Below, piece by piece: positions 19,404-53,586 of a DNA stretch of 64,000 bases. Positions within the stretch are counted from its first letter, which is position 1, and every line of letters starts with the position of its first letter. This stretch comes from Cytophagales bacterium (GTDB lineage Bacteria > Bacteroidota > Bacteroidia > Cytophagales > CCMP332), in contig OZ245737.1 in assembly GCA_965227315.1 (NCBI GenBank), forward strand, positions 859,517-923,516. The letters run 5' to 3'. The position numbers were made by a program, and so were the translations under genes. The notes under the pieces are model-generated. The model was not told the DNA's origin. It made no database searches and saw nothing but the letters and a program-made list of their open reading frames with translations.

Positions 19404-22247
19404 TTAGTTTGAAGAATCGCGAACTTTTAGCACCATTCCGGAATAGAGAACATTGCTGTCAAGTCCGTTCATTTGGCGAAGCCTTGAAACACTTAGGTTA
19501 TATTTTTTGGCGATATCAAACATAGTATCACCCTCTTTGACCACATATTTCCCCGGGCTGACCTCACCGTATGCGGTCTCCTGAGGCTCAACGATCAGCC
19601 TCCATCCGATCTGGATCCTGTTGGAACTGAGACCATTGATCTCCTTGAGCTGGTCAACACTCATCCCATGCATTTTCGCGATACTGTAAAGCGTGTTCAG
19701 GGGTTCAACCACATAGTATTCCTGCCCCTCCTTTAAGGGTGGTAATTGAAGTTGCTCCGTTTTCAACATAGAACCGGAACTGGCCCGCTGAGCCGATGCC
19801 ATGGTCACCGGTGCTATCAACCCGTTATCTCCGGTTCTCCTGACCCTCAATGGCGTCAGTGCATCGATCTGATCTTTGTCCAGATTGTTCACCCTCATCA
19901 ATTCTTCCTTGGGCATGTTAAATAATTCCGCAACGTCAGCAAGGCTGGATTGGGATTCCACTACGTAGGTCATCATCAGGGTTTCGTATCTATGCCCTCC
20001 GGTCACCATGAATTCAGCCCTTCGGTTGATCCTTCTTCCAACTGCGCTTTCATTGCTTCCAAGAGGTTGTAACTCACCCATTGCATTGATCACAAGAGAG
20101 CTTGGCTTTGCTCCTCTGTTCTCAAGATACTTCTCAATCTCTTCACCTCTTTTCTGGGAAAGATCCTTGTTGTAATCTTCTCCCCCAATGGCATCCGCAT
20201 AAGCTGATATTTCCACTTTTGAATCGGGATTGTCCTTTAAATAGGTCGCCAATTCATCCAGGGTCATTTCTGCCTCTCTCCGGATCTTATAATCGTTAAA
20301 GTCAAAATAGATATTCTCGAATACCGTTGCTCCCATCGGGGCTTCGGCTTTTGTCCAGATCAGCTTGGTTTCACCACTGATGTATTTTACATCAGAGATC
20401 AGGGAAAGAAAATCCTCATCTACCACAATGTTGTAATTCCTATCTGAATCAAGATTCTCAAACCTAACGGCACCCAAATGATCGGTCGTAGTCCTTTTCA
20501 GGATATTTCCTTCATCATCAACCAGAAGCACAGGTACATCAACAGCAGGCTCACCGGATTCTGCGACCATAATGGTCGATAGAATGGCAAACTTTCCGAT
20601 CTCTTGCAGTTGGTCTCTCAGGATCACAGCGAGAACCTTCCCATGTCTTGTTTCGGAAAGGTCAATATCCCCGTTAGCGCCGGAATAGAAAACAGTGGAA
20701 TTCAGATCATCGCGTTCCTCCTCAAGCATGACCTGATAACCTTTATCGGAGGTTAGGTCATCAAACTCCACCTGTCCATACTGGTCTGTTTGAGCTCTTT
20801 TTATCAGGTTACCCACCTCATCCGTCAGAAGAACAGGTACATCATGTGCAGGATCTCCGGATTCCGAATAGGTCAGGGTGGCTAAAACCTTAAAAACATC
20901 CTTAAAATTGACACTATCACTATTGACCTTGGCAAGAATGATCTCCTTGGATTCAATATTGAAGTAATAGATATCATCACTACCTGCTCCACCTTCCCTA
21001 TTGCTGGCCATAAGGCCCTTTTTATCTCCCAAATGGAAGTAAAAATCATCCCTGTTCGAATTAAAAGGAAGTCCCAGGTTCCGTGGCTCTCCGCCATCTT
21101 CGAAGAAATACTCAAAGATGTCCAACCCGCCGAAACCCTTTTGTCCGTTACTCACAAAGAACAAAAGCTTCTCCTTGGCATAATACTGAGGAGCCATGTC
21201 AAGAAACGGGGTATTCACCTTCGGGCCAAGATTCCTTGCAGGATTCCAATCTTCCCCAGGGCCTGACTTCGTGCTATACCAGATATCATTGTTCCCAAGA
21301 CCATCGGGTCGATCACTCACAAAGAAGATCGTATCGCCTGTTGGCGTGAGGGTCGGTTGCTTGGTTTCAAAGCCTGGTGTGTTGATCTCATCCGGTAACC
21401 TTTGAGGTTGGATCCACTTCCCGTCCTTTAGTTCGGAAACATAAATTGCGCATGGGTATTCATCTTCAAGGCAACTCGTATAGTATATCTTCTGGCCCCC
21501 ATTTGTAAATTCTGCTGCACCATCGTTCCTAACAGTATTGATATCCGAGAAGTTATCCCGGTCGTCATATTGCTCCCATTTATTGGGACCCGTCTTCTTG
21601 AATCGAAAGATGTCGGTGTATTGACCTCCGAGTCTTACATCGATCTCATTTCCCTTGGTTCCCTCCCTTGAAGAGGCAAGAATGATGGACGAGTCGTTCT
21701 CAAAAAAGGCCGGGGCATATTCCGAAAATTCCGTGTTTACAGGGCTTGGAAGCAGCTCAAACTTATAGTCTCGTAAAGGTTTTTTAAGCTCGTTCATGGC
21801 AAGTTCACAGCCCGCCTGCTCCAGTTTTGCCTCAGTTGTATAGATGGTATCCTCCTCCACTTCCGGCTGATAAGCGGAAAGGAATTTGTCAAATTCTCCC
21901 ACCGCTCGTTGGTATCTTCCATTGCTCTTCAACATCATGGCATACCAGAACCTGACCAGCGGATATTCTTTGTCCGCTCCCAATTTGCCAGCCTGCAGAT
22001 ACTGCTTTTCGGCCTTCAGATAGTCAAAATACAACCTGTAGCATTCGGCAAGCCTGTAGTTCAGATAGTAGTTATTGGGATCATCCTTTAGGGCCCGATT
22101 GTAATAATCTGATGCCAGGTAATACTCTCCGTTTTCGAAGTACTTATCTGCAACTTCAATTTCCGCATCCGACTTTTTTTGAGCCAAAGCCCCGGAGAAG
22201 GGCATGGATACAATGATAAAGAACAGCAGCGCGATTATATTTTTCAT
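19404..22247 (-). CDS. PorE-like OmpA-family protein: TPR, PD40 beta-propeller, 2x CarboxypepD_reg-like, OmpA_C, 3x LysM
   Basis: Signal peptide ..SMPFSGALAQ. TPR region (YYNRALKDDPNNYYLNYRLAECY). PD40-type repeats (TGDTIFFVSDRPDGLGNNDIWYS). Two VPVLL(T/V)D(E/D)xGN units. OmpA motifs (NIYFDFNDY...NRRAEF). Three LysM units (YVVKEGDTMFDIAKKYNLSVSRLRQMNGL and two more). Confidence 0.85.
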   Translation of the reverse strand: MKNIIALLFFIIVSMPFSGALAQKKSDAEIEVADKYFENGEYYLASDYYNRALKDDPNNYYLNYRLAECYRLYFDYLKAEKQYLQAGKLGADKEYPLVRFWYAMMLKSNGRYQRAVGEFDKFLSAYQPEVEEDTIYTTEAKLEQAGCELAMNELKKPLRDYKFELLPSPVNTEFSEYAPAFFENDSSIILASSREGTKGNEIDVRLGGQYTDIFRFKKTGPNKWEQYDDRDNFSDINTVRNDGAAEFTNGGQKIYYTSCLEDEYPCAIYVSELKDGKWIQPQRLPDEINTPGFETKQPTLTPTGDTIFFVSDRPDGLGNNDIWYSTKSGPGEDWNPARNLGPKVNTPFLDMAPQYYAKEKLLFFVSNGQKGFGGLDIFEYFFEDGGEPRNLGLPFNSNRDDFYFHLGDKKGLMASNREGGAGSDDIYYFNIESKEIILAKVNSDSVNFKDVFKVLATLTYSESGDPAHDVPVLLTDEVGNLIKRAQTDQYGQVEFDDLTSDKGYQVMLEEERDDLNSTVFYSGANGDIDLSETRHGKVLAVILRDQLQEIGKFAILSTIMVAESGEPAVDVPVLLVDDEGNILKRTTTDHLGAVRFENLDSDRNYNIVVDEDFLSLISDVKYISGETKLIWTKAEAPMGATVFENIYFDFNDYKIRREAEMTLDELATYLKDNPDSKVEISAYADAIGGEDYNKDLSQKRGEEIEKYLENRGAKPSSLVINAMGELQPLGSNESAVGRRINRRAEFMVTGGHRYETLMMTYVVESQSSLADVAELFNMPKEELMRVNNLDKDQIDALTPLRVRRTGDNGLIAPVTMASAQRASSGSMLKTEQLQLPPLKEGQEYYVVEPLNTLYSIAKMHGMSVDQLKEINGLSSNRIQIGWRLIVEPQETAYGEVSPGKYVVKEGDTMFDIAKKYNLSVSRLRQMNGLDSNVLYSGMVLKVRDSSN

Positions 22248-22313
22248 AATGCTGGTTGAAGAGATCAGCCTATTTTTTCTAAAGAAATAAAAAAAAATCC
22301 AGCCGAGAAAGTT

Positions 22314-24653
22314 CTATTCCTCGTCCTCAGGAGCCTTTACTATGTAAAATTCCACCCTACGACTATATGCAGAGCCCTTTTCTTCAGGGTCGGTTACACC
22401 GGGAATACTCACGGTACTGAGGTCAATTGTTACTTTGGTTTCCTCTCCCATCGGGTATAGTACAAGGGAACTTTCATCTACCTGGCGAAGTCTTAGGTAT
22501 TCCAAAACCGAATTAGCCCGGGCAGCGGATAGCTTGCGGTTGAACTCGGCATTTCCGACCGTGTCCGTATAGGCTGAAATATCCACCTGGATAGTCGAAT
22601 TGTCCTTATAATACCTACCTAGGTCATCCAGAGTCTGCTTTGCATATTGATTCAGATCCTTGGAGCCAAAATCAAAATAAATGTTCTCGAACTTCACGTT
22701 CTCGATCACCGATTCATAGCGCTTGAGGTTCAATTCATTGAATACCACGGAATTATCCGGATTATAATTTGGATCTTCCCGATCCAGGATCACTTTGTAA
22801 TTCCTGTCCGTATCAAGATTTTCGAACCTCATAAAGCCCTTTTGGTTTGTTCTTCCTTTCTTGATGACATTTCCATCTTCATCTAAAAGCAAAACAGGAA
22901 CTCCACCCGCCGGTTCTCCTCCCTCTTCATAGGAGATACTTCCCAAGAGGGCAAAACCTTTAAAATCACCCAATGAATAGTCGGAACCCTTGTTATCCAT
23001 TTTTAAGGTCGCCTGTGGCTGATCCTTGAAATACACCAGACTCAGGTTATCGACGACCTCAATATCATTGATGAAATACCTCATGTCCGCTTGTAGTGCC
23101 GGATCATCAGAATCGATGACAATCCGATAACTTCTATCCGTGGGGATCTCTTCGAAGCGAACGAGTCCATCCGAATCCGTGGTAGTGGTTTTCAGGATCT
23201 TGCCGTTGTCATCGACCAACATCACCTTGACATTAGAGGCCGGATTGTCTCCTGATCCCGAATAATGGATCCTGGTCAGAGCGGTATACTGTTTGAAATC
23301 GTCGAGATACTCGTTCGCAACCATTTTGATGAATTTCTTCCGGCTGGCATATTCAAAAGCATAGATATCGGTCTTTCCCTTACCACCCTCACGGTCGGAT
23401 GAAAAGTAACCCTTTCGTTTTCCCAGAACCAGATAAAAGTCATTTCTACTTGAGTTGAATGGCATTCCAAGATCCTTCACAAAATCCAGGTTATCCCCTG
23501 TGGCCATATAGAGATCAACACCGCCAAATCCCTCGCGTCCGTCAGAGGCAAAAAAGAACGTATGCTCCTTTGGATAATAAGATGGAGAAATATCGGCAAA
23601 CGGAGTGTTGATCCTCGGGCCCATGTTTTTAGCGGCTCCCCATTCCTCGGCCTTGGTTTTGGTAGAGTACCAAATATCCTGCATCCCCTCACCACCTGGT
23701 CTCTCCGAAACGAAAAACAGGGTATCGCCCTTGGGAGTGATAAAGGGGTGTTTATTCTCGGTTTTTGGTGGGTTGATGTTCTCGTTCAGTTTTTCGGTGT
23801 ACCAGGATTTACCCTTTTTCTTGGCCACGAAAATGGCGCAGTTCCCGTCTTCCTCCTGACAGGCTGTGTAATAGAATTTCTTTCCTCCTTTAACAAAGGA
23901 TCCCGGACCATCATTTTTAAAGGTATTCGATACCGATAGGAAGGCTGAACCATTGCTGATTGACCATCTGTTGGTCCTTTTGTTCCATTTCACATAGAAA
24001 TTATCGGAATAGAAGATCTCAGCTTCCTTGTCTTTATTGTCCTGTTTTACCCCTTTTCGATCGGAAGTCAATACAAACATCGAATCGGATACGAGTCCCG
24101 GCGCATACTCATCCGCACCGGTATTAATTGGTCTGTCAAGATTCTCAAAACGAATATCCCTTTCCTTTTTCTGAAGTTCCTTTAATGCGATCCTGCAACC
24201 TTCGGCTTCAAGCACCGCCTTCTCCTTCAGGATCTGGTCCTGCTCCGAGCTTCCATGAAAATTTTCCACAAAGTGATCAAGGATCCCCTTGGCCTCTTCG
24301 AATTGGCCGTTCATCTTGGTGGTCACCCCATACCAGAAATACGCATGAGGAAATTCATCAGCAGCCCCTTTTGCTACGACCTCATAATATTTCTCGGCCT
24401 TGGGGTAGTCGAAAAGCTCATAGTACAATTCCGCCAATTGATAGTTGGCATAGTAATTTTTGGGGTTTTCGTCTATTTCCTTTTCATAGTATTCAAGCGC
24501 ACTGTAACCCTCACCCATTTTCAGGTATTTGTCTGCGATCTTTACATTCTGGGTTAGATATTCCTTTTTAACCTGGTTATCCTGGCCGACCGAAGAGGTC
24601 ACGACGAATAGAACTGCTACCATGGGCAGCAGAAGTCTAAGGTAAACTTTCAT
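22314..24653 (-). CDS. PorE-like OmpA-family protein: TPR, PD40 beta-propeller, 2x CarboxypepD_reg-like, OmpA_C
   Basis: A paralog of the downstream gene: TPR (YYEKEIDENPKNYYANYQLAELY), PD40 repeats (KGDTLFFVSERPGGEGMQDIWYS), VPVLLLDEDGNVIKK, and OmpA (NIYFDFGSKDL...SRRVEFYIV). Confidence 0.85.
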   Translation of the reverse strand: MKVYLRLLLPMVAVLFVVTSSVGQDNQVKKEYLTQNVKIADKYLKMGEGYSALEYYEKEIDENPKNYYANYQLAELYYELFDYPKAEKYYEVVAKGAADEFPHAYFWYGVTTKMNGQFEEAKGILDHFVENFHGSSEQDQILKEKAVLEAEGCRIALKELQKKERDIRFENLDRPINTGADEYAPGLVSDSMFVLTSDRKGVKQDNKDKEAEIFYSDNFYVKWNKRTNRWSISNGSAFLSVSNTFKNDGPGSFVKGGKKFYYTACQEEDGNCAIFVAKKKGKSWYTEKLNENINPPKTENKHPFITPKGDTLFFVSERPGGEGMQDIWYSTKTKAEEWGAAKNMGPRINTPFADISPSYYPKEHTFFFASDGREGFGGVDLYMATGDNLDFVKDLGMPFNSSRNDFYLVLGKRKGYFSSDREGGKGKTDIYAFEYASRKKFIKMVANEYLDDFKQYTALTRIHYSGSGDNPASNVKVMLVDDNGKILKTTTTDSDGLVRFEEIPTDRSYRIVIDSDDPALQADMRYFINDIEVVDNLSLVYFKDQPQATLKMDNKGSDYSLGDFKGFALLGSISYEEGGEPAGGVPVLLLDEDGNVIKKGRTNQKGFMRFENLDTDRNYKVILDREDPNYNPDNSVVFNELNLKRYESVIENVKFENIYFDFGSKDLNQYAKQTLDDLGRYYKDNSTIQVDISAYTDTVGNAEFNRKLSAARANSVLEYLRLRQVDESSLVLYPMGEETKVTIDLSTVSIPGVTDPEEKGSAYSRRVEFYIVKAPEDEE

Positions 24654-24671
24654 ATGTCGAAATTAGGAAAT

Positions 24672-29363: not shown

Positions 29364-29374
29364 AGGTAGAACAG

Positions 29375-29435
29375 TTACACTGATGGTTGCCGTATCCGTA
29401 AAACACCCATTGTTGCAAGTCCTACCACCTGGTAA
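29375..29435 (-). other. Frameshift junction joining the 7010-aa and 1215-aa ORFs (apparent 1-nt deletion, most plausibly at about 29408-29413)
   Basis: The upstream frame reads ..DYQVVGLATMGVLRIRQPSV*. The downstream frame, read 5' of its called start, gives ..NNGCFTDTATISVTVLPVPDATLV. That supplies the conserved second Cys and the V.V..P end of the module begun in the upstream ORF. The span 25716-50407 is 24692 nt, which is 2 mod 3. Confidence 0.75.
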
Positions 29436-50400: not shown

Positions 50401-50407
50401 TCAGCAT
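29375..50407 (-). CDS. N-terminal segment of the giant T9SS adhesin (7010 aa): signal peptide, N-terminal domain, 2x parallel beta-helix segments, about 25 Ig-like 87-aa modules, about 12 Ig-like modules of 95-100 aa, 2x LamG-like domains and 13 SprB-repeat-like modules. It has no CTD.
   Basis: An uninterrupted 21-kb ORF. Signal peptide MLRKLYLISILLLCSIGAYSQ. Beta-helix repeats (NxIGGN..DGIxI). LamG signatures GLIDEVRIWDY and GSIDEVRFWEN. Modules are framed by paired Cys residues. Confidence 0.9.
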   Translation of the reverse strand: MLRKLYLISILLLCSIGAYSQLDLELRATQSLDASKDSIRVLIEIRRIGIADDLGSSNFWLRPNVDSTAPDLDIDNARLDPTGGAWHNVGGYDPMTISRNTLLNVVGINVVKSLTPGAAVQVPLTYTTVGTIVIPILDKCDSSVLSWRTNPPTGTILTFTGGVASVSARNIAPSNFFYKDSIGATLYTVKDSICDGDSIPIGIRVTGEADTVAGGFTVVLNPGGFVFNNVKGTDTLMMPPRPAGIQYTDYAVVSVTDSNGCTHTIPANHFTSTVDLFVKNQIPLTLTVDDPGPYCWDEVQDFYVLPISSPTDSLIWSHTLANGNLAVGNQDTVTYTFTNIATGPDKIFARKIDDDGCEAQDSLSIQINDPRIVINTADDPDSCGCLSVAAAYANSNLGADTIRFDPVMTGQTVVLGNELIVSAGNGNGTVIDGDIDGDDIPSVSIDGGAVSKMRADGDNITFQYLHLFNFVSAIWVEGANAVAIGNRIGTNLAGTAVAASANIEGVNITSLATNCRIGGTTPAERNIISGNSDDGIEIEGVGVHFVIGNYIGLNASGNAAIPNGVNGVFIDGSANNSIGDGTPSGLNVISGNGDSDIRISGGAGQGNQILGNYIGTDNLGNATVANAAYGIRVDGGASNNQIGDGTAGGRNYIGGHGTYEISLESGSANDVKNNSIGISTGGTPLAGSTAGINLSGTAQNDSIIANDIANSANEGIGVRGSADDNRFFENQIYSNGGLGIDFVDPGVQNDIDSPVINDLNPVGTILEGTSQPNARIQVFADAAEEGEQYLGDTVATAGGNWEFDLNLGGINPGLTNLTAIQDDGDRSSDFSAPFAICSRPDINFLNTVVSLPHDSIYNCSTRDTVVRVDSATVAGTILGSNGLLFEWYDGGRTDPVLVGQTKSFISVNPASSQFYTVRVSDFDDPSCFEYDSVWIEAEPLPVVTITEQSSGPYCENGFAILSEDSLDGETFQWLINGNPIAGATTDTLYADSIGTHLYNVVVTTPFGCTDTALVGTTITINANPSVGIDQGSNQIVCISGGLFGMSSTVLPANPGTWSWKQIVGSSSLINISTNTADYDPSVEIVGFVDTVWAIFQETATTCWDSAFIEITVDGGLAVSKTVDDNTCGTFRNAIREANLTPGSIISFSIPGGGPHEIVLDSALPNVTGANTLIDGWSQPGYDNDGIPDIQLDGQGGSFSGIVLDASGVAVRGLAIINFLGGNAGIETLTGTNDSIYGNFIGIDTLGNAAANDIGIRLNGLNHVVGDTLPNRRNIISSNTNNGIFVNANNNFFFRNWIGVGIDAFTPRANGAAGILLNGAGASLNTFGSFNTDTSNIIANNLGPGIEANSGGIAQNAWRNNSIYDNAVEGISLIGDVQSGIAAPTIDSLGITGILYGKDASLGAIVSLFADGSEQGRQFLDTTIVANAGGFWSKQINPGAIIAGLDSLTVTQESGGNSSEFADPVLVCFEPVISYLNPPTNDTIVYCLGSDTLVYADSVSIDPTFTFSYSWNVGSPGGLQISNSATALITNTGPEIYFLTVTRSPGCFSVDSFYVDTLPTVTPADAGTDIDSCGTLIRMTANAPTFGAGTWTQISGPLTINIVDPLSDTTIVDLVGGFTQSSDTFELEWTIIGDCDTSSDIVQIVFHDSPSPPDAGPDIDSCGTTAFLSGTPIGTGLGYWTATGPSTLFFFGNDTTDPNVRVDVAGIVSSPDTFSVFWNSQNGTCPESQDVMQLVFFGDPTVPNAGTPDSVCQLTTTLAGNMPAAGEYGYWQVVSGPAGHVFVDSTVFNTDFTAGGFGVYELSWSLGNGVCLDSADTVQITFFDDPTVPNAGTPDSVCQLTTTLAGNMPAAGEYGYWQVVSGPAGHVFVDSTVFNTDFTAGGFGVYELSWSLGNGVCLDSADTVQITFFDDPTVPNAGTPDSVCQLTTTLAGNMPAAGEYGYWQVVSGPAGHVFVDSTVFNTDFTAGGFGVYELSWSLGNGVCLDSADTVQITFFDDPTIPNAGTPDSVCQLTTTLAGNMPAAGEYGYWQVVSGPAGHVFVDSTVFNTDFTAGGFGVYELSWSLGNGVCLDSADTVQITFFDDPTIPNAGTPDSVCQLTTTLAGNMPGPAEYGYWQVVSGPAGHVFVDSTVFNTDFTAGGFGVYELSWSLGNGVCLDSADTVQITFFDDPTIPNAGTPDSVCQLTTTLAGNMPGPAEYGYWQVVSGPAGHVFVDSTVFNTDFTAGGFGVYELSWSLGNGVCLDSADTVQITFFDDPTIPNAGTPDSVCQLTTTLAGNMPGPAEYGYWQVVSGPAGHVFVDSTVFNTDFTAGGFGVYELSWSLGNGVCLDSADTVQITFFDDPTIPNAGTPDSVCQLTTTLAGNMPAAGEYGYWQVVSGPAGHVFVDSTVFNTDFTAGGFGVYELSWSLGNGVCLDSADTVQITFFDDPTIPNAGTPDSVCQLTTTLAGNMPAAGEYGYWQVVSGPAGHVFVDSTVFNTDFTAGGFGVYELSWSLGNGVCLDSADTVQITFFDFATVPNAGMNDTVCGLTATLGANPAGAGEYGYWQVLSGPAGHAFVDSTVFNTDFTGGNYGLYELSWSIGNGVCLDSADTVFVRFDQDPTTSNAGSDTSLCGTNYTMDGNTPTVGIGVWDTISTPPGPNDITFFFPNDPNTPITASDFGVYLVTWTITNGNCTPSIDTVELSFFDNPSTADAGPDPDSACGFSTALQAVPPTIGSGIWTADIVGNPGNANFSNDSLNPAATVNVDAYGVYKFYWTVSNGPCTPSVDSVIFEFFEQPDTAIAGADDSICGLVYNLMGNTPSAGTTQWSQISGPGIITFGDSSLPNTTATASVFGVYEIEWRVTNGACVDRADTVEITYFDIATVPNAGTPDSVCQLTTTLAGNMPAAGEYGYWQVVSGPAGHVFVDSTVFNTDFTAGGFGVYELSWSLGNGVCLDSADTVQITFFDDPTVPNAGTPDSVCQLTTTLAGNMPAAGEYGYWQVVSGPAGHVFVDSTVFNTDFTAGGFGVYELSWSLGNGVCLDSADTVQITFFDDPTVPNAGTPDSVCQLTTTLAGNMPAAGEYGYWQVVSGPAGHVFVDSTVFNTDFTAGGFGVYELSWSLGNGVCLDSADTVQITFFDDPTVPNAGTPDSVCQLTTTLAGNMPAAGEYGYWQVVSGPAGHVFVDSTVFNTDFTAGGFGVYELSWSLGNGVCLDSADTVQITFFDDPTVPNAGTPDSVCQLTTTLAGNMPAAGEYGYWQVVSGPAGHVFVDSTVFNTDFTAGGFGVYELSWSLGNGVCLDSADTVQITFFDNPTPAFAGNDTSVCGDTVGLNADIVTVGSGMWSFVSGPAVVTFDNPADPKSEAYGSTDGNYILMWTTSNGNCPVDQDSVTVGFRDRVLIPVFAGPDQSVCDTFTTLAASNPGPFSSFWTEHPVSGNINFVNGNSPTSVVHTTGPGLYGTYKLSWTVANDPCPSVGDTVLITFDEDPTTSVAGAVTDSICADTVELAANNPIVGTGQWTTTLAPAGGVITFDDDTLFNTIARHNGVYGQYQLTWTISSGSCTPSASSITVDFFADPTIPDAGPDSAEICSNSIVLSANNITSGQGRWKDISAIPRVSFNDPTLPNATASVVFTGTEDTVEVLLEWKSFNGSCDTLRDQILVWFFANPTTANAGGDQLGLCGDSAILAANNPDPGVGNGVWTWQSGPGQVTFSDSSQFNSSAYSNGFLGTHTLRWTISNGTCADSFDEMDVEFFDPVDSANLTGGAVICEGDSIPLVVNFVGGAGPYLITIVADIGANPVVPSPYTSGDTIWHVPTNPALTTYTLVSATTSTPPFCAATVITSNATSLVNPTAAANMTPLNQSICDGSSANIQVNFTTGTAPYFVRYTDGTNTTDIFPYTSGDNIVVNPTVNTTYYIDSISDANGCGVAAPDANITDSAEVLVNPNVPPTVSLVQDPPGSVCDGELVDFTVVATDTGNAPVWAWTVNGGPIVSTGNSYSYSPTDGDLVRVTLDVTGMGCIPAPAGIVEDTTLMIVVDSITPVVSIDQFPANPVCATDDLLLVANITGAGPSDTYAWRRNGGAVIGTDDSLTVLSTNWNDGDEFSFTLTTTAACATVGSVTDQVTINTTTGGTTTVSIVQSPASPVCINDPVQFEASNVGGGANPVYEWFIDNNPAGTDSTIFDTTFTPAGSYYVKVRMSKAPSCYSPDVVLDSVLVVVDNSVTPSISISANPNGPVCPNEDVEFEAIMVGQGTAVPTWYLGTNPVAFGTSYLYPGNTVSGDSISVQLNSNASCKSSGAIVNDSYIIQIQDPITPEVSISQSPDNPVCIGDDVDFTANPSGGGTSPSYQWFLNGGLQAQGTGLDNVTFVNIQDGDEVAVIMTSSNPPGCASMPTAADTIFIQGSLTVPLQVSIDQSPSGDLCIGQTVTYTANVIGGGANPSYQWNVIPPAGPPISNLDQITLTTVAGAPSNSFEIGPGTNLITLNLTADPNSCNTGQSFLAFQSTTVDPVVTPSVSLAQSPANPVCSGDNVTFSTTVSGEGTSPVYNWFVNGGLVATNSSGTYNSNMLADGDEVVVELVSNGCGAVPTDRDTLVIDLQDPIIPTVDIEVTPGTEICSGSLVRLVALSTGEGDNPSYAWRENGTFFGNGDTIIRSFTGAGPFFISVELNKGLACGAGTATAIDFDTITINNTPSVTITQDPDPTCNGDLTNLSANVVGLGFGSQYVWRRISPSVQLVAAGADLTSIQTGVNAGETYRVTVTNASSGCLAPTDSVFFTYGVNTLPGSVTPEVFLSMDPMNPICPDELITFEVDSVRGQGANPGYRWYVNDTLRHIGTTYATNELKGFDVVSLELNSSASCATQTFAYDSITILETDPSVLIVGDTTFCYGDTAVTFFAQDSSGGVSFTWIEAISGQIVGTADSLRVDTAGNYYLKVDNGRGCADSSRAIIVETPLPFADSTVAAVADTCFGETITLSLVGPSVAADYNLTWMYGNDTIAGANDSTYEAGWTGVYQILAANASCIDTMGYAQVSIKPRIDSLLSIRLGDSILCKDDSVLLWVPGVQGHAAGSRAGYINTGINGLGGPGSKSVEAWVKTDTAMGIISWGTGGTNNWIVRINGANGALELSLNQAGNNRITGTTDLRDYQYHHIAVVYDSAINTNLDGVTLYVDGQKEMAGVFNNTAVSPGANTIYMGLRSQGPGANPYFMTGLIDEVRIWDYAMDSISIAHNRNTPLRGTEPNLFALWNFEDTTGSTPKEVVTGFAGGSFVNSFFGIDSGYYRAPLSNPGYVWRVDGTIQPLFTSNFFVYDTTGDVTVEVSNGNCAATSNVLPLREVIIDTTLNLLLGSGSPIAVGCFGDSVAFESNEIGPPAVTYQWFYGWDTIPGATSRDFGSTKTGIYTVAITKEECTEPSRSQVIRNAPQFDDSVRYETDTICEDGSVELVINSVNTNYWSTTGAGYGEANNLLDLVPDNGFSVELFFKIDNLASLANSVLMMKNQDANDYFRIAFDVNGDIMFETDVAANGAGTDQLILTGSNGNWNTSDWFHVAVSWDNIRGKAIHVVGVGSAYDSTENIVMPDFTPGPACDLVVGIDQNFGCATLPASEFPGSIDEVRFWENAHPRVFFANNSLVPLSGTEHGLLALWQMDSVGIFDDGDLIGDATSNSFNLELKNNGHVFAKGGFYQPDNAPSYQWYDDNGIIVGANTDTLVVTTEGNYYAEVLNGLNPATCAQFTDTVGIKVNFLDDSLIFDLVHDTVFCDDTDSALISIDNNQGPELRVDWYDTVGNTLIAADTHQVWIDTTGVYYAVLTKSYTTFPQFGGNVITCTDTTRLFHVIELENPMAFAGYDTLICFDQAHTLGGIVPDSVTASGGNPPYTYSWTLSTGLDDDGLLSDTNAANPIFSGDTVNTFNFIVEVTDDSLCFDIDTVMVQVNPEIIPFAGNDTIICFEDSAVLGGTPTAMGGSGNINLTPIWRPTTYFDDPADSTSFNPLVINSIDVGDDVTYVVEITDTVAGCQVYDTVRIVYNPKVVANAVAPDSIVCFMDSLQLDVQPRDSGGIGMHSYQWESNPVIAGIFSPSDTIADPYFKGIQSGLYQVYLTGTDSIGCIGRDTIQMRVNDTIMVDAGVDTVVCYGDTMILGGLPTASGGQGAFKYQWTYIPNFPGLINSGDSANPILIHNVTPLPGPVDVTFTLTVYDTASMQICEVVDQVVIRLNPQISISSFPGDSTVICFEDTIQPIPANVVGGSGNFSYLWSPNTYLNDDTLLQPDFYGDSSGVHLLTLSVTDDMDPFMASCIVDSVIQIRVRDTLMVNARSIDLLGNADSIACFQDSLLLIADVISDEGPFTYTWTPGTNLGGTLLNDTATMDGIIAGLYDYVIRVQDNGFLCDNFDTVHIAVSNRIIADANRLTAPGVFDTLYLCYGQDSSLGGNPTGNNLPGIPGGPLSYTWTPNIKLDDASLANPALTADSAMRLQYNVVVSDSFGCTDEDSLFVFVNDSISAGLINDTTLCFGDSIYLGDTLYDGSVTVTGGTEPYTFVWSSIPSTSVNFLDDPNARNPLFNPLGNANQIPHQFSVTIRDSLGICVEVRTVTITVNPPITFDPNAIVDSLCQFSTVQMGGFFTAGGGFDGTFDFQWAPSGLFDDDTLQFPNFTANYIGDTMVYLTVTDPIGCVAIDSQFVRSLQLPSFNIQNDSFDMCFGLDTVLRITDTVNYQSYGMLDILWSNGKTTDTIHYRASTDTIFYIALTNNQNTCSSMDSVQVFVNPLPLQNFSTDGSSISLNDTLAYCPASPSNPLVNVHSVPDAGNPIGIDTFFWSALDPPGFIAPGAELLNPTTYLPGAGNSPSNLALKIRDFNDCVNYDTVTILLTQYPNVRIRLADDTVCYGDSTSLYLVNLPAGPTFNHTVFRVQPGPFSIFIYNGGLDSIGILSSQSLPDTLTKPLEIVYEWTFVEGTCNSILYDTLIVLPKPKLTSGAVPNPVCLGDTTELSASINAPLVADSFYWSTGTVNTNGIEPVVPLVDTDYQVVGLATMGVLRIRQPSV
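40541..41830 (-). repeat. In-frame tandem array A: 5 near-identical copies of a 258-bp (86-aa) unit
   Basis: The anchor gtgatctgaacc recurs at 40551, 40809, 41067, 41325 and 41583, exactly 258 nt apart. Unit peptide: DPTVPNAGTPDSVCQLTTTLAGNMPAAGEYGYWQVVSGPAGHVFVDSTVFNTDFTAGGFGVYELSWSLGNGVCLDSADTVQITFFD. Confidence 0.95.
42875..45196 (-). repeat. In-frame tandem array B: 9 near-identical copies of the same 258-bp unit
   Basis: The anchor gtgatctgaacc recurs at 42885, 43143, 43401, 43659, 43917, 44175, 44433, 44691 and 44949, exactly 258 nt apart. In N-to-C order the copies are three V/AAG, one I/AAG, three I/GPA and two I/AAG. Confidence 0.95.
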
Positions 50408-50502
50408 ACCGGCTTAGTACGTATTAATATTTTCTTCCAATGGCCAAAATAAAGATATTCTCATATCCAATTCTCAATTTCTTTTACTCCCCGGAATGTT
50501 GA

Positions 50503-51768
50503 TTATTTACTTGCCTCTATCAGGGTGGTGGTGTACACCCGCCCGTCTGCAAAAAGTTTAATTATATAGGCTCCGGATGGCAAGCCCAGATCAACGGTTT
50601 CGAACCTCCACTCGTAGGCACCCGAGAACAAATGCTGATCCTCGATCTCCTGAACCTTGATCCCCTTGAGGTCATATACCTCGATCAAAACATCCGATTC
50701 CTTCACCAGGTCGAGATAAATATTGGTATTGCCAAAATATGGGTTGGGATAAACACCTACTCTCGATGCAATTACGCCTTGCCCTAAGGTATTGGCTGTA
50801 TAGTTGAAAGGATCAGAAACAGATTTCCCACAAGTGTTTGAAACCTCCACAGTATAGGACCCGCTTTGCGTGGGAACCAAAGTTTGCTCTGTGGAGCCGG
50901 TCAATACATTTCCGTTTAAGTACCATTGATTGCCTTCCTCGGAAGAGCTGGTAAGGGTGCCTTGATTTTCTGCGATAAATGGTTTTTCAGGTTGTTGCAC
51001 AACGTTGATCACGAGAGGATCTGAGAATTTTTCCACCGAACAGCTTCTATGTCCCACCCTATATGAACCAGTCGCATTCACTGAAAATGTAGAGTCAGTT
51101 CCGGAGATCAGTACAACACCATCCTTTTCCCAAATGACTTCATGATTTTTTGGATTCTGCGTTGCCAGGGTCACAGTGGTGCCCGCACAGACCTTAACAG
51201 GGCCGTCATAGATCAGCGAAGGTTCGGCAGGTGCTTCAAACAATGGCAAACTCGGATTGCTCATCACAAAGCTCAGCTCCGACTTGATGGATTTTGGCCA
51301 TGGGCTGATCTCATATTCCGTAACCTGGCCCCATTTGGTATCCCACTCTATATGACTTTCCGAACAGGTATTCAGTATAGGTATCCTTACTGTACCGACG
51401 GGTTTGGCGACCGTTTCGACGAATACACCGGAGCCGTTTCCGTTGTTGTTTTCATTGATGCGAAGAACAAGAAGATTATTGGCATGAAGGCTCATGGCGA
51501 TGTATGAAGACGGATCGGAGGAAACATCAAATGACCTGGGTTGACTCATATCTATATATGCACCTCCCAGATCCAATACACCGGGCAAAACCCTGAACGG
51601 AATATCTGTACCACCCAAAGCCACCTGAGGACCATTCACCACCTTGGCCGACACCTGCAATACGATCTCATTGCCATCTCTGCTTTGCTGCGCCTCAAAC
51701 ACGACCTCTGCCATCGAAGGCAAGGACAGGAACAGTACAAATGCAAGCAGTGAGTAAAGTCTTTTCAT
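50503..51768 (-). CDS. Secreted protein with a T9SS type A (Por) C-terminal sorting domain. Its N-terminal domain is homologous to that of the giant adhesin.
   Basis: Signal peptide ..LFLSLPSMAE. The type A CTD is VYPNPYFGNTNIYLDL...IEVYDLKGIKV...LPSGAYIIKLFADGRVYTTTLI. Ig-like Cys-framed modules lie in the middle. Confidence 0.85.
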   Translation of the reverse strand: MKRLYSLLAFVLFLSLPSMAEVVFEAQQSRDGNEIVLQVSAKVVNGPQVALGGTDIPFRVLPGVLDLGGAYIDMSQPRSFDVSSDPSSYIAMSLHANNLLVLRINENNNGNGSGVFVETVAKPVGTVRIPILNTCSESHIEWDTKWGQVTEYEISPWPKSIKSELSFVMSNPSLPLFEAPAEPSLIYDGPVKVCAGTTVTLATQNPKNHEVIWEKDGVVLISGTDSTFSVNATGSYRVGHRSCSVEKFSDPLVINVVQQPEKPFIAENQGTLTSSSEEGNQWYLNGNVLTGSTEQTLVPTQSGSYTVEVSNTCGKSVSDPFNYTANTLGQGVIASRVGVYPNPYFGNTNIYLDLVKESDVLIEVYDLKGIKVQEIEDQHLFSGAYEWRFETVDLGLPSGAYIIKLFADGRVYTTTLIEASK

Positions 51769-51774
51769 ATTTAC

Positions 51775-53586
51775 TTATATCCCCGGAACAGCTGAAAAGT
51801 AAATCCAATTATTGCCCAAAGTCACTCTTTGATAGTCCATGGTATTGATCCGCACCGCAGCATCGGTCATATCAACATCTTCATTCCTGTACCCGACCTG
51901 CAAATTGGTCAAACCATCAAAAATTCCATAGATCGTTTGAATAGCATTCAGATCAGCGGCGTTGACCTCTCTGTCATAATTTGTATTGCCTTCCCATAGA
52001 TAAGAAACCGACATATTGTAACCGGATCCACCTACTCCATAAATATTTGCAGGATTGCCAAAATCAACATCCAGACCGACCGGAACCGTATTGCTCAATG
52101 GCACCGCCGTCGCCGACATCACGGCAAGATGGTTCCTATGAGTCACCACGACATAAAATGGTCCGTCAGCAGCTCTGGCATTTGCAAAAGTCACATAATC
52201 CTTCACCCCACTTGCAAAATCCCGAATCGAACCATCGGTCATCAACCATGCACTGATTGAATCAATGGTGGTGTTGGCCTGTATTCCCGTCCTCAAATAG
52301 ATCTTGATACTGTCTACTGCGGTGTCAGCCGCGCTCAGGGGAATAGTATATCCCGGGATCATGGGCACGCCATAACCGGGTTGTTCGAATCTGCTTTCCA
52401 TGGTATCGCGGATATGGAACATCAATCTGGCATCCATTTGGGTATCGTTGTCCCCTGACAAAGCACCACCAAGGAAGGCCCTGATCCTTAAGTTCAACTG
52501 TGTAGCCTTACCAATGGCTACAATCACATTGTCAGGCGATCTGAGCTCTGCCTCAACAGCCATGGAATCCCCGGAGGTGGTGATATTGGATCTTCCCATG
52601 GAGTAAAAAATATTGACTCCGTCATTTCTGGTTTGCGCCACCACTGCCGCGGAAGAATTCGGTATATCATTGGTATCGATCGTCGGGCGGGCAAAGAAAC
52701 TATCAAGGTCGCTGACAAAATCTTGAACAACCCAAAAGTTGGAAAAATCAACGCTTCCAAGGCCAAGGGAATCATATGATACGATCCCGGGATCGGTGTA
52801 TTTTACCTTGATCCAAGGCTCAGATCCGGAGTAGCTCGTGGAAACCATTTCCATAGGTCTGAATTGATTTGCCAATCCGGTATTACCCACAGGAAAATAA
52901 AGATTATCACCTGATGAACTGGGTTGTCTATATAAGGAGTCGGCATAACTTCTTTTGTTTCCTCCTACAATCGTTCCGCCCTGATTCACGCGCAGGGAAT
53001 CGTGCCCATCGCTATTTTCCATATCGATCCGGCCATTGGTGAGGGTAAGCTGATCGGTATGAACGGCACTCCAAAACCTTGTGGTGTTGAATCCGGCTGT
53101 TGCCATTTCGAGATTTCCCAGATCCAATAATCCAAGGAGGTCTGTTCTTACGCTTTTGTTTCCCGTACCGAAAAAGCCAAGCGTTCCCGAAGTGGAACGG
53201 AAGTTTGCTGTATCATTTACAGAACCCCTTTTAACCCTGAAAATATTGGAGACCTCAACCAAACCAAGATTATTTGTTGAAGCAGAATCGAAAATGGCCA
53301 CTCGGTCACCGGAAAGGACTCCGGTACCCGAATTGAGAAAAAACGTTCCCGCATTTCTCAGTGCGAAAGTGTCATTGATCACAATGGAGCCTTCATTGGT
53401 CAGCTGAGCGCTGTCAATGACAAACATTCGATCCGTAGAGAGTAGTGCATTAGAACCCCTTAAAACAAAGGTCCCTCCCCTGATGGTCAACTGAGCACAA
53501 GCTTCATGGACCATGGTAAGGCAGGTCAAGCTAAGTATTAAGAACAGGCTCGGCAGCGGCCGTATTCCTATGTAATTTTTTTGCAT
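51775..53586 (-). CDS. Secreted hypothetical protein (603 aa) with an N-terminal beta-helix-like repeat region and a C-terminal dockerin-like segment
   Basis: The start is taken at ATG 53586, giving MQKNYIGIRPLPSLFLILSLTCLTMVHEACAQ (a signal peptide). The longer ORF start at 53724 would overlap the divergent plsC-like gene. The stop lies 6 nt from the next gene's start. Confidence 0.6.
   Translation of the reverse strand: MQKNYIGIRPLPSLFLILSLTCLTMVHEACAQLTIRGGTFVLRGSNALLSTDRMFVIDSAQLTNEGSIVINDTFALRNAGTFFLNSGTGVLSGDRVAIFDSASTNNLGLVEVSNIFRVKRGSVNDTANFRSTSGTLGFFGTGNKSVRTDLLGLLDLGNLEMATAGFNTTRFWSAVHTDQLTLTNGRIDMENSDGHDSLRVNQGGTIVGGNKRSYADSLYRQPSSSGDNLYFPVGNTGLANQFRPMEMVSTSYSGSEPWIKVKYTDPGIVSYDSLGLGSVDFSNFWVVQDFVSDLDSFFARPTIDTNDIPNSSAAVVAQTRNDGVNIFYSMGRSNITTSGDSMAVEAELRSPDNVIVAIGKATQLNLRIRAFLGGALSGDNDTQMDARLMFHIRDTMESRFEQPGYGVPMIPGYTIPLSAADTAVDSIKIYLRTGIQANTTIDSISAWLMTDGSIRDFASGVKDYVTFANARAADGPFYVVVTHRNHLAVMSATAVPLSNTVPVGLDVDFGNPANIYGVGGSGYNMSVSYLWEGNTNYDREVNAADLNAIQTIYGIFDGLTNLQVGYRNEDVDMTDAAVRINTMDYQRVTLGNNWIYFSAVPGI

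What the first reader, a model, noticed from the sequence alone, without database searches (positions are those of the whole stretch)
19404..53586. A 34-kb T9SS cargo island: giant type B CTD adhesin with its own PorP/SprF and two PorE-like anchors
Seven ORF calls lie on the minus strand with very short gaps (6, 95, 11 at the frameshift, 0, 18 and 66 nt). In order they are a 603-aa secreted protein, a 421-aa type A CTD protein, the giant adhesin (7010 + 1215 aa), PorP/SprF, a PorE-like protein and a PorE-like protein with LysM domains. The adhesin-plus-PorP/SprF arrangement resembles sprB-sprF of Flavobacterium johnsoniae, where a type B CTD cargo depends on an adjacent PorP/SprF-like protein. 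In addition, this island carries two private copies of a protein with the four-domain architecture described for the Porphyromonas gingivalis T9SS component PorE (TPR, beta-propeller, CarboxypepD_reg-like, OmpA_C). My inference is that the island encodes a self-contained, cargo-dedicated platform of PorP-like barrel plus PorE-like peptidoglycan tethers for one giant surface filament, rather than using the general T9SS attachment machinery. A cargo-linked PorP plus duplicated PorE module would be an undescribed variant of T9SS organisation.
Basis: partly seen in the sequence, partly recalled or inferred. Interest (0 to 1): 0.8.

Follow-up and report, generated by a model that had tools for sequence, protein, structure and literature searches.

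The report
Giant adhesin with dedicated wall anchors
This gene cluster from an uncultured Cytophagales bacterium encodes an 8,230-residue surface adhesin next to its own outer-membrane carrier and two cell-wall-binding tether proteins, an arrangement already described in Flavobacterium johnsoniae, so it is a new example of a known system, not a new kind.

Summary
All seven minus-strand ORFs, the gaps between them (6, 95, 11, 0, 18 and 66 nt) and the domain calls were reproduced. These include a type A CTD, a CHU_C/type B CTD, PorP/SprF, and two TPR / beta-propeller / CRD / OmpA proteins, the second with three LysM domains. The "frameshift" is a 1-nt deletion relative to an intact relative. Repairing it gives one 8,230-aa ORF.

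The functional reading is plausible: a cargo-linked PorP-like carrier plus PorE-like peptidoglycan tethers. The novelty claim fails. Operons of type B cargo + SprF-like carrier + PorE homolog are reported in F. johnsoniae (five or six), with the same static cell-wall-anchoring model (PMC9143113, PMC12618676).

In 80 metagenomic PorP-family loci, about 20 have a PorE-like gene directly downstream and 3 are PorP-OmpA fusions. The PorP-like protein has no cysteine, so it lacks SprF's track-linking Cys-X-Cys tail. This makes sprB-sprF the wrong analogue.

Lineage-specific features:
- The PorE-like gene is duplicated in tandem (38% identity), in the window and four related genomes only.
- The PorE-like proteins have no lipoprotein signal.

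Possibly new: a conserved PorP C-tail, ...[FY]xTP[RK]I, that tracks with PorE-like neighbours.

I could not test whether the genome also has general PorP/PorE genes.

The parts
51775..53586 (-). 603-aa secreted protein of unknown function. It has a signal peptide, and an N-terminal all-beta repeat region is predicted.
   Evidence: No Pfam or NCBIfam hit. Only 7 homologs were found, all hypothetical proteins. The AF2 model is poor (pLDDT 50), and only residues 30-190 are confident, all beta. No PDB sequence or fold match. Homologs sit upstream of type B giant genes in L006 and L007.
50503..51768 (-). 421-aa Ig-like protein with a type A T9SS C-terminal sorting domain
   Evidence: TIGR04183 scores 37.1 bits (cutoff 23) and PF18962 scores 30.9 bits at residues 339-417. 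Residues 1-145 resemble residues 2-150 of the giant adhesin (28% identity, E 2e-5). Homologs lie upstream of type B cargo in L006 and L007.
25716..50407 (-). Giant adhesin gene: 8,230 aa once the 1-nt deletion is repaired (7010 + 1215 aa as it stands)
   Evidence: Ig_7, PKD-like, Laminin_G_3 and a weak SprB repeat. The N-terminus is a signal peptide, MLRKLYLISILLLCSIGAYSQ. The repaired ORF has no internal stop, and its last 1,911 aa are 97% identical, without gaps, to the relative L002.
29405..29415 (-). Frameshift site: a single missing C (GCAACCAA in the relative, GCAACAA here)
   Evidence: Three-frame translation, alignment to L002 and the repair test.
40536..45197 (-). Array of about 18 tandem 258-nt (86-aa) repeats inside the adhesin gene; many copies are 97-100% identical
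   Evidence: TRF score 5315 and the repeat families.
25755..26006 (-). Type B (CHU_C) T9SS sorting domain at the C-terminus of the adhesin
   Evidence: PF13585 scores 54 bits at residues 1120-1203 of the 1215-aa ORF. TIGR04131 scores 24.3 bits, below its cutoff of 35.
24672..25715 (-). PorP/SprF-family outer-membrane carrier, 347 aa, cysteine-free, starting 0 nt after the adhesin stop
   Evidence: TIGR03519 scores 200.6 bits and PF11751 scores 142.7 bits. No cysteine is present.
24675..24701 (-). Conserved C-terminal tail ...RRRFSTPKI of the PorP-like protein (class A tail)
   Evidence: The same tail occurs in all 8 genomic orthologs. The consensus over 27 distinct sequences is [RK][RVI][FY]xTP[RK]I-COOH. 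Of 15 informative metagenomic loci with this tail, 14 are followed by a PorE-like gene.
22314..24653 (-). PorE-like tether 1 (779 aa): TPR, beta-propeller, 2 CRD-like regions, OmpA_C; no LysM and no lipobox cysteine
   Evidence: Pfam and NCBIfam hits. The best OmpA-domain match in the PDB is 6TOP, an entry titled 'OmpA family protein'. I recall this entry as the P. gingivalis PorE C-terminal domain, but that was not verified here. The NxxLSxxRA peptidoglycan-binding motif is present (alignment).
19404..22247 (-). PorE-like tether 2 (947 aa): the same architecture plus three C-terminal LysM domains
   Evidence: Pfam LysM 114 bits, OmpA 71 bits, PD40, TPR. It is 38% identical to tether 1 over 774 aa. 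It belongs to a large Cytophagales family of OmpA+LysM proteins.
19413..19976 (-). LysM triple-repeat region of tether 2
   Evidence: PF23473 at residues 758-800 and two PF01476 stretches, the best at residues 901-942.

Best explanation
[quoted passage not shown] Steps 1 to 3 below are inferred from published work on P. gingivalis and F. johnsoniae. Step 4 and the conservation data are shown here.

1. The 8,230-aa adhesin is exported by Sec and passed through the T9SS translocon by its type B (CHU_C) C-terminal domain.
2. It stays bound by that domain to the cognate PorP/SprF-family beta-barrel encoded immediately downstream.
3. The barrel is fixed in place because it is held on its periplasmic side by one or both PorE-like proteins, which bind peptidoglycan through their OmpA_C domains. 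The second copy also binds through three LysM domains.
4. The PorP-like protein has no cysteine, so it cannot form the disulfide link to the GldK track that moves SprF-SprB. The filament is therefore predicted to be stationary.

The two PorE-like genes are old tandem paralogs specific to this lineage. The LysM-bearing copy is the ancestral form.
For: Domains. All expected domains are present.

Conservation.
- The gene order CHU_C cargo-PorP-PorE1-PorE2(LysM) is conserved in four further uncultured Cytophagales genomes: OZ254081.1, JANQHS010000285.1, CAYGPM010000002.1 and the near-identical pair JAVJQT010000003.1 / OZ254083.1.
- More distant genomes have cargo-PorP-single PorE-LysM (Catalinimonas alkaloidigena, L007) or at least the adjacent PorP-PorE-LysM pair (L013, cargo side not examined).
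- The single-copy forms are closer to PorE2 (46% identity) than to PorE1 (36-41%).

Metagenome sample. The 80 PorP-family loci were selected without using the tail. Results are:
- Tail ...P[RK]I: 14 of 15 informative loci are followed by TPR-PD40-OmpA-LysM proteins.
- Tail ...PKSRY: 4 of 4 are followed by PD40-OmpA proteins.
- Cys-containing tails: 29 of 32 are followed by a GldK/PorK-like FGE-sulfatase protein and none by a PorE-like protein.
- Three loci encode PorP_SprF-OmpA fusion proteins. In L045, Pfam confirms a CHU_C cargo gene directly upstream (Rosetta-stone link).

Sequence features.
- There is no cysteine in the window PorP-like protein or in the mature part of its orthologs.
- Both OmpA domains keep the D...NxxLSxxR motif.

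Published basis.
- PorE-PorP-PG1035 complex, with PorE bridging to peptidoglycan (PMC9143113).
- Static Fjoh_3952/3951/3950 model (PMC12618676).
- The SprF Cys-X-Cys motif is needed for movement but not for carrier function (PMC12635249).
Against: - There are no expression or interaction data. Co-transcription is inferred only from spacing, and the consensus promoter and terminator scans were uninformative.
- As sequenced, the adhesin is split from its CTD by a frameshift. If the deletion is real, the cargo is not secreted in this strain.
- The PorE-like proteins lack PorE's lipid anchor and miss the NCBIfam PorE cutoff.
- Several class A PorP + PorE-LysM pairs have no cargo gene directly upstream: L005 (Cytophagaceae bacterium ABcell3, at the syntenic position), L023, L026, L037 and L059. 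The pair therefore need not be private to one cargo.
- P. gingivalis PorP is encoded in the porPKLMN operon (my recollection, not shown by a tool here), which would probably place it in the GldK/PorK-adjacent class. It nevertheless binds PorE, so absence of cysteine is suggestive of a static fate, not proof.
Confidence: 0.7

Rival explanations
1. The PorP-like and PorE-like genes are the organism's general T9SS components. They happen to sit beside a cargo gene and serve many substrates, as PorP and PorE do in P. gingivalis.
For: - In Cytophagaceae bacterium ABcell3 the PorP + PorE-LysM pair occupies the syntenic position, next to the acyltransferase, TPR and Cob-adenosyltransferase genes, with no cargo gene.
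- Five metagenomic loci likewise lack an adjacent same-strand cargo ORF.
- In the complete chromosome of the 80% relative, only one PorE2-type protein appeared among the top 120 hits.
Against: - A distinct PorP class, with a Cys-containing tail and 28-32% identity to the window protein, lies directly upstream of GldK/PorK-like genes in 29 loci. It looks like the general porP of the porPKLMN-type operon.
- Cargo genes directly precede the class A PorP gene in the window, in the four related genomes, in L007 and in many metagenomic loci.
- PorP-OmpA fusions sit after CHU_C cargo.
- Catalinimonas carries a further 639-aa PorE-architecture gene 3 kb away from its cassette.
Confidence: 0.12
2. It is a SprB/SprF-type mobile gliding adhesin system: the filament is propelled along the cell surface, as the reader's sprB-sprF analogy implies.
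For: - A giant repetitive type B CTD protein is followed at 0 nt by a PorP/SprF gene.
- There is a weak SprB-repeat hit.
- Two conserved accessory genes lie upstream, reminiscent of sprC-sprD in the sprCDBF operon. I know that operon only from the title of Rhodes 2011, cited. The homology was not tested.
Against: - The carrier has no cysteine, so the Cys-X-Cys tail required for SprF's disulfide link to GldK and for sustained movement is absent.
- Mobile F. johnsoniae substrates are reported not to be encoded with porE-like genes, whereas the static one is.
- The SprB repeat hit is below the Pfam threshold (25 bits against 28).
Confidence: 0.08
3. The locus is decaying in this strain. The 1-nt deletion is genuine, the adhesin is truncated at residue 7010 without its sorting domain, and the anchor genes are left without cargo. 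This concerns the state of the locus, not its kind, and is compatible with the best explanation for the ancestral function.
For: - The deletion is present in the sequence and is not in a long homopolymer (CC -> C).
- Cargo-less PorP + PorE-LysM pairs exist elsewhere, so cargo loss does occur.
Against: - There is only one disruption in 24.7 kb.
- Downstream of the shift the reading frame stays open for 1,215 codons and is 97% identical at protein level to the intact relative, as expected for an error or a very recent event.
- An array of about 18 near-identical 258-nt repeats was assembled intact. I infer from this that the assembly used long reads, for which single-base indels are the typical error.
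Confidence: 0.25

Closest known systems
F. johnsoniae type B cargo / SprF-like carrier / PorE-homolog operons (e.g. Fjoh_3952-Fjoh_3951-Fjoh_3950), described by Kulkarni 2019 as cited in PMC9143113, and by Paillat 2025 (PMC12618676)
   Same: The gene order is the same: type B CTD protein, then cognate PorP/SprF-like gene, then PorE-like OmpA-family gene. The proposed function is the same: static anchoring of the cargo to the cell wall through a PorP-like / PorE-like complex.
   Different: - Here the PorE-like gene is duplicated in tandem (38% identity).
- One copy carries three LysM domains.
- Both copies have two CRD-like regions and no lipobox.
- The cargo is far larger (8,230 aa).
- Two conserved accessory genes lie upstream.
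- The host is an uncultured Cytophagales bacterium.
- Direct sequence comparison with the Fjoh proteins was not possible because their sequences are not in the available collections.
P. gingivalis PG1035-PorP-PorE complex (Gorasia 2022, PMC9143113)
   Same: There is experimental precedent for the three-layer arrangement: type B cargo bound to the PorP barrel, which is bound to periplasmic PorE, which binds peptidoglycan. PorE has the TPR / beta-propeller / CRD / OmpA_C architecture.
   Different: - In P. gingivalis PorP and PorE are single-copy and PorE is essential for gingipain secretion. As I recall, the three genes are not clustered; that was not checked here.
- PorE is a lipoprotein.
- The window proteins score 208 and 262 bits against a cutoff of 600 for the NCBIfam PorE model.
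SprB-SprF gliding adhesin system of F. johnsoniae (sprCDBF operon)
   Same: A giant repetitive type B CTD adhesin is followed directly by its PorP/SprF-family carrier, with accessory genes upstream.
   Different: SprF has a periplasmic Cys-X-Cys tail that is disulfide-linked to GldK and needed for movement, and it has no porE-like neighbour. The window carrier is cysteine-free, ends ...RRRFSTPKI and is followed by two PorE-like genes.
Pal/OmpA_C and LysM peptidoglycan-binding modules
   Same: The OmpA_C domains keep the conserved D...NxxLSxxR motif, and the LysM repeats match Pfam strongly (114 bits).
   Different: Here both module types are combined in one periplasmic protein that also has TPR and beta-propeller partner-binding domains.

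Membership tests
T9SS type B CTD cargo (TIGR04131 / PF13585 CHU_C) | C-terminal sorting domain matching the family HMM above threshold | tested here: met
   PF13585 scores 54 bits (cutoff 27) at the extreme C-terminus. The narrower TIGR04131 model scores 24.3 bits, below its cutoff of 35.
T9SS type B CTD cargo (TIGR04131 / PF13585 CHU_C) | N-terminal Sec signal peptide and an intact ORF linking it to the CTD | tested here: inconclusive
   A signal peptide is present. The ORF is interrupted by a 1-nt deletion at about 29411. It is intact in relatives and after repair.
T9SS type B CTD cargo (TIGR04131 / PF13585 CHU_C) | Secretion depends on a cognate PorP/SprF-like protein | not testable with these tools
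   Only adjacency (0-nt gap) and its conservation were shown. Genetics are needed.
PorP/SprF family (TIGR03519 / PF11751) | Full-length HMM match above threshold | tested here: met
   TIGR03519 scores 200.6 bits (cutoff 90.55) and PF11751 scores 142.7 bits.
SprF subtype (track-coupled mobile carrier) | Cys-X-Cys motif in the periplasmic C-tail, forming a disulfide to GldK (PMC12635249) | tested here: not met
   The 347-aa protein has zero cysteines, and its tail is ...RQAKEKKRRRFSTPKI. The same holds for the mature part of eight orthologs.
SprF subtype (track-coupled mobile carrier) | No porE-like gene in the operon (as reported for sprB-sprF) | tested here: not met
   Two PorE-like genes follow, at gaps of 18 and 66 nt.
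PorE family (NCBIfam NF052230, P. gingivalis PG1058 type) | Whole-protein score above the curated cutoff (600 bits) | tested here: not met
   The two proteins score 207.7 and 262.4 bits, and the CHU_0125 model scores slightly higher. The cutoff is narrow, however: even the stand-alone 639-aa Catalinimonas protein scores only 299 bits.
PorE family (NCBIfam NF052230, P. gingivalis PG1058 type) | TPR + beta-propeller + CRD + OmpA_C domain order | tested here: met
   TPR at about residues 35-100, PD40 at about 285-330, CRD-like regions at about 465-530 and 560-625, and OmpA at about 647-743 in both proteins. There are two CRD-like regions here, whereas PorE has one.
PorE family (NCBIfam NF052230, P. 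gingivalis PG1058 type) | Outer-membrane-associated lipoprotein (lipobox cysteine) | tested here: not met
   The N-termini are MKVYLRLLLPMVAVLFVVTSSVGQDNQ... and MKNIIALLFFIIVSMPFSGALAQKK.... Neither has a cysteine near the cleavage site. PorE is described as a lipoprotein in PMC9143113.
PorE family (NCBIfam NF052230, P. gingivalis PG1058 type) | Binds PorP and peptidoglycan | not testable with these tools
   The support is indirect only: conserved adjacency, PorP-OmpA fusions and a conserved peptidoglycan-binding motif.
Type B cargo / PorP-like / PorE-like static-anchor operon (F. johnsoniae Fjoh_3952-3950 type) | Three gene types adjacent on one strand, in the order cargo, carrier, PorE-like | tested here: met
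   The order is conserved in relatives and is common in metagenomes.
Type B cargo / PorP-like / PorE-like static-anchor operon (F. johnsoniae Fjoh_3952-3950 type) | Cargo is immobile on the cell surface | not testable with these tools
   Live-cell imaging is required.
T9SS type A CTD cargo (TIGR04183) | C-terminal sorting domain above threshold (the 421-aa protein) | tested here: met
   TIGR04183 scores 37.1 bits (cutoff 23) and PF18962 scores 30.9 bits (cutoff 27).

The most novel reading that the evidence does not exclude
The PorP/SprF family may carry a C-terminal "tail code" that names its periplasmic partner and so decides the fate of the cargo.

What was observed:
- A cysteine-free tail ending [RK][RVI][FY]xTP[RK]I-COOH (the window type) goes with a downstream TPR / propeller / OmpA-LysM tether.
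- A ...PKSRY tail goes with a LysM-less PD40-OmpA tether.
- Cys-containing ...Px[FW] tails go with a downstream GldK/PorK-like gene.

What this would mean: the tail would be the peptide docked by the TPR or propeller domain of the PorE-like protein. In the window's lineage the two paralogous tethers, one OmpA-only and one OmpA + 3 LysM, might form a heteromeric double clamp under one very long filament.

Only the correlation is shown here. The binding role of the tail is inferred.
Probability: 0.3. Interest if true: 0.55.

Novelty: new member of a known kind. Interest (0 to 1): 0.25.

Why it matters
The cluster adds a clean, conserved Cytophagales example to the recently proposed split between mobile and cell-wall-anchored type B T9SS cargo. 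That split currently rests on a few F. johnsoniae operons and one P. gingivalis complex.

The comparative data collected here give T9SS researchers inexpensive, testable handles on how PorP-like carriers choose between a peptidoglycan tether and the moving GldK track:
- PorP-like genes with a PorE-like neighbour are common in metagenomes.
- PorP-OmpA fusion proteins exist.
- A cysteine-free conserved tail tracks with PorE-like partners.

The cluster does not change the picture of T9SS organisation.

Tried and rejected
1. Promoter and terminator scans. The sigma-70 and terminator consensus scans and a search for the Bacteroidota -7 motif TAnnTTTG in the intergenic gaps gave counts near shuffle expectation and no intergenic motif. 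Nothing can be said about transcription units.

2. The 603-aa protein.
- The word-based homolog search found only 7 relatives.
- AF2 with a 6-sequence alignment gave pLDDT 50.
- Foldseek against the PDB gave nothing below E 0.02, and the weak hits were beta-helix tailspikes.
- A profile search of PDB sequences gave nothing.
- Its function remains unknown.

3. NCBIfam PorE and CHU_0125 cutoffs as a test of general versus private PorE. I rejected this as a discriminator because even a stand-alone 639-aa PorE-architecture protein from Catalinimonas scores about half the cutoff.

4. Looking for the window's own genome. An inventory of other PorP/PorE genes in the same genome was therefore impossible.

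5. Kulkarni 2019 (PMC6755757) and Rhodes 2011 (PMC3021240) are not held in the library. Their content is cited only through papers that quote them. Homology of the two upstream genes to SprC/SprD could not be tested.

6. Mobile-island reading rejected. There are no tRNA genes, no flanking direct repeats, no GC break, and the flanks are syntenic.

7. Programmed frameshift. I considered this and set it aside. The relatives encode the protein in one frame, and there is no slippery run at the site.

Full report
**What is in the sequence**

The seven minus-strand ORFs exist at the stated coordinates, with gaps of 6, 95, 11, 0, 18 and 66 nt. The family searches reproduce every domain call:
- The 421-aa protein has a type A CTD (TIGR04183, 37.1 bits, cutoff 23).
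- The 1215-aa ORF ends in a CHU_C type B sorting domain. PF13585 scores 54 bits against a cutoff of 27. The narrower TIGR04131 model scores 24.3 bits, below its cutoff of 35.
- The 347-aa protein is a PorP/SprF family member (TIGR03519, 200.6 bits, cutoff 90.55).
- The 779- and 947-aa proteins both contain TPR, PD40 beta-propeller, two CarboxypepD_reg-like regions and OmpA_C. The 947-aa protein also has three LysM domains.
- The giant ORF is built of Ig_7, PKD-like and Laminin_G_3 domains.
- The first ORF has no family match. Its likely start is the ATG at 53586, giving 603 aa, as in a 99%-identical database protein.

The flanking genes are housekeeping genes: miaA, an MBL hydrolase, a flippase-like protein, an acyltransferase, an ABC ATPase, PduO and IlvE. 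There are no tRNA genes, no flanking repeats and no GC discontinuity. "Island" therefore means only a gene cluster.

**The frameshift**

At the 7010/1215 junction, one frame ends ...DYQVVGLATMGVLRIRQPSV*. Another frame continues with the typical Ig-repeat sequence ...NNGCFTDTATISVTVLPVP. A relative with 90% nucleotide identity (JANQHS010000285.1) reads GCAACCAA where the window reads GCAACAA, a single missing C at about 29411.

Restoring the C gives one 8,230-aa ORF. Its last 1,911 residues are 97% identical to the relative, without gaps. The gene also contains about 18 tandem 258-nt repeats, many of them 97-100% identical. I infer that such an array was resolved by long reads, which makes a single-base indel error plausible. 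I cannot decide between an error and a very recent mutation.

**Origin and conservation**

The closest sequences are all uncultured Cytophagales MAGs. The order giant CHU_C gene, PorP-like, PorE-like, PorE-like-LysM recurs in four further genomes. Protein identities to the window range from 99% down to 50-58%, and the flanks are largely syntenic.

The two PorE-like genes are 38% identical over 774 residues, so they are old paralogs. More distant genomes have a single PorE-like-LysM gene after the PorP-like gene: Catalinimonas alkaloidigena L007, L013 and L014. That single copy is closer to the window's LysM copy. The LysM form is therefore ancestral, and the LysM-less copy is a duplicate specific to this lineage. 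None of the 80 metagenomic loci examined has the duplication.

The LysM-tailed PorE-like family is large. There were 935 hits at E < 1e-20 among the scored candidates, and the top 120 nearly all carry OmpA + LysM. They are annotated as LysM or OmpA-family proteins of Cytophagales.

Between the window and the 80% relative, the anchors are 79-86% identical but the adhesin is only 44% identical. The cargo evolves much faster than its anchoring module.

**How common is the module?**

I scanned JGI metagenomes with a PorP-like alignment from which the last 30 residues had been removed. The search patterns came from the N-terminal FSQYY motif and the GGWYR motif, not from the tail. I extended each PorP ORF and classified its neighbours with local HMMs. 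Pfam spot checks followed. Four patterns emerged:

| PorP tail | Downstream gene | Count (informative loci) |
|---|---|---|
| Ends ...P[RK]I | TPR-PD40-(CRD)-OmpA-LysM protein | 14 of 15 |
| Ends ...PKSRY | PD40-(CRD)-OmpA protein without LysM | 4 of 4 |
| Cysteine in the last 24 residues, ends Px[FW] | FGE-sulfatase-domain GldK/PorK-like protein (never a PorE-like one) | 29 of 32 |
| None: PorP_SprF-OmpA fusion protein | the L045 fusion directly follows a Pfam-confirmed CHU_C cargo gene | 3 loci |

Cargo-linked PorP-like plus PorE-like modules are therefore widespread, and the fusion proteins independently support a functional PorP-OmpA link. The window's PorP-like protein and all eight genomic orthologs carry the first tail type...(K/R)RRF(S/Y)TP(K/R)I, and have no cysteine in the mature protein. 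Over 27 distinct sequences, P(-3) is invariant, I(-1) occurs in 26 of 27 and T(-4) in 23 of 27.

**Mechanism**

Published work provides the frame:
- In P. gingivalis, PorE binds the PorP barrel, PorP binds the type B cargo PG1035, and PorE's C-terminal domain binds peptidoglycan (PMC9143113).
- In F. johnsoniae, SprF carries SprB. It needs a C-tail Cys-X-Cys disulfide to GldK for movement but not for its carrier function (PMC12635249).
- The Fjoh_3952 CTD behaves as static. It is encoded with its carrier Fjoh_3951 and the PorE homolog Fjoh_3950 (PMC12618676).

Applied here, the adhesin is held by its CTD on the cysteine-free PorP-like barrel. The barrel is pinned to the wall by the PorE-like proteins through OmpA_C, whose conserved NxxLSxxR motif is visible, and through LysM. 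The filament is predicted to be stationary.

Shown here are the domains, the adjacency, its conservation, the fusions and the absence of cysteine. Inferred are the contacts, the immobility and the co-transcription. The consensus promoter and terminator scans were uninformative.

**Comparison with what is known, and novelty**

[quoted passage not shown] - PMC12618676 counts five such operons and proposes the same static complex.
- The sprB-sprF comparison is the wrong member of the family, because those papers single out sprB-sprF as lacking a porE-like gene.

What is specific to this locus:
- the tandem PorE-like duplication
- the LysM triple repeat, for which I found no paper in the library linking PorE-like proteins and LysM
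- the absence of a lipoprotein signal
- two CRD-like regions in each PorE-like protein
- the very large cargo
- two conserved upstream accessory genes

The accessory genes have homologs upstream of type B giants in L006 and L007. The 421-aa protein shares its first ~145 residues with the adhesin N-terminus.

I file the cluster as a new member of a known kind.

**Open points**

It could not be tested, because the genome is not available to the tools. Indirect evidence points both ways:
- For a private module: a separate, Cys-tailed, gldK-adjacent PorP class exists, and Catalinimonas has an additional stand-alone PorE-architecture gene.
- Against strict privacy: several PorP + PorE-LysM pairs lack an adjacent cargo gene, including one at the syntenic position in Cytophagaceae bacterium ABcell3.

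The tail-partner correlation may partly reflect clade inheritance. By my recollection P. gingivalis PorP is encoded next to porK, and it is nevertheless reported to bind PorE. I therefore give the tail code only as the most novel reading that the evidence does not exclude.

The 603-aa protein remains uncharacterised.

Noticed in passing
L045:6004-7896 (also L057:737-2527, L083:5938-7731): PorP_SprF-OmpA fusion proteins of about 600-630 aa in metagenomes. In L045, Pfam confirms a CHU_C type B cargo gene directly upstream; L083 has a similar 986-aa upstream ORF. The barrel and the peptidoglycan-binding domain are in one polypeptide.
   Followed up: partly
L016-L095 (PorP-family loci); window 24675-24701: C-terminal tails of PorP/SprF proteins fall into classes that track the downstream gene. 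...[FY]xTP[RK]I goes with PorE-like-LysM, ...PKSRY with a PD40-OmpA protein, and Cys-containing ...Px[FW] with a GldK/PorK-like protein. A further class, ...TPRFFN, has no recognised partner.
   Followed up: partly
L005:8918-12622 (Cytophagaceae bacterium ABcell3, CP133159.1); also L023, L026, L037, L059: PorP-like + PorE-like-LysM pairs with no cargo gene directly upstream. In ABcell3 the pair sits at the position syntenic with the window's cluster, next to the acyltransferase gene.
   Followed up: partly
window 40536-45197: About 18 tandem 258-nt (86-aa) repeats inside the adhesin gene, many 97-100% identical to each other. This suggests recent expansion or homogenisation, and a long-read assembly.
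   Followed up: partly
window 50503-51768 versus 49958-50404: The first ~145 residues of the small type A CTD protein resemble the first ~150 residues of the giant type B adhesin (28% identity, E 2e-5). One N-terminal domain is thus attached to two different T9SS sorting signals in neighbouring genes.
   Followed up: no
L006:13151-22910 and L007:22-8942: Homologs of the 603-aa unknown protein and of the type A CTD protein precede other giant type B CTD genes in distant Cytophagales. This suggests a conserved accessory pair. A possible analogy to sprC-sprD was not tested.
   Followed up: partly
L053:7086-12863: A 1,925-aa PorE-like protein (N-terminal region and OmpA both match) lies downstream of a PorP-like gene whose tail ends ...NISHPII. 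It is more than twice the usual length.
   Followed up: no
L039:6001-8633: This is the one class A exception. A PorP-like gene with the tail ...QRVFNIPKI follows a large upstream ORF, but the next gene is a 522-aa protein with no Pfam match, not a PorE-like gene.
   Followed up: no
window 54711-57524 (+): A 937-aa ORF with no NCBIfam hit. The gene in the corresponding position in ABcell3 (998 aa) shows only faint TPR matches.
   Followed up: no
window 18333-19349 (-): A flippase-like (LPG_synthase_TM) gene lies 54 nt downstream of the LysM tether on the same strand. It is conserved there in the two closest relatives but not in the 50% relative, so it is probably not part of the module.
   Followed up: partly
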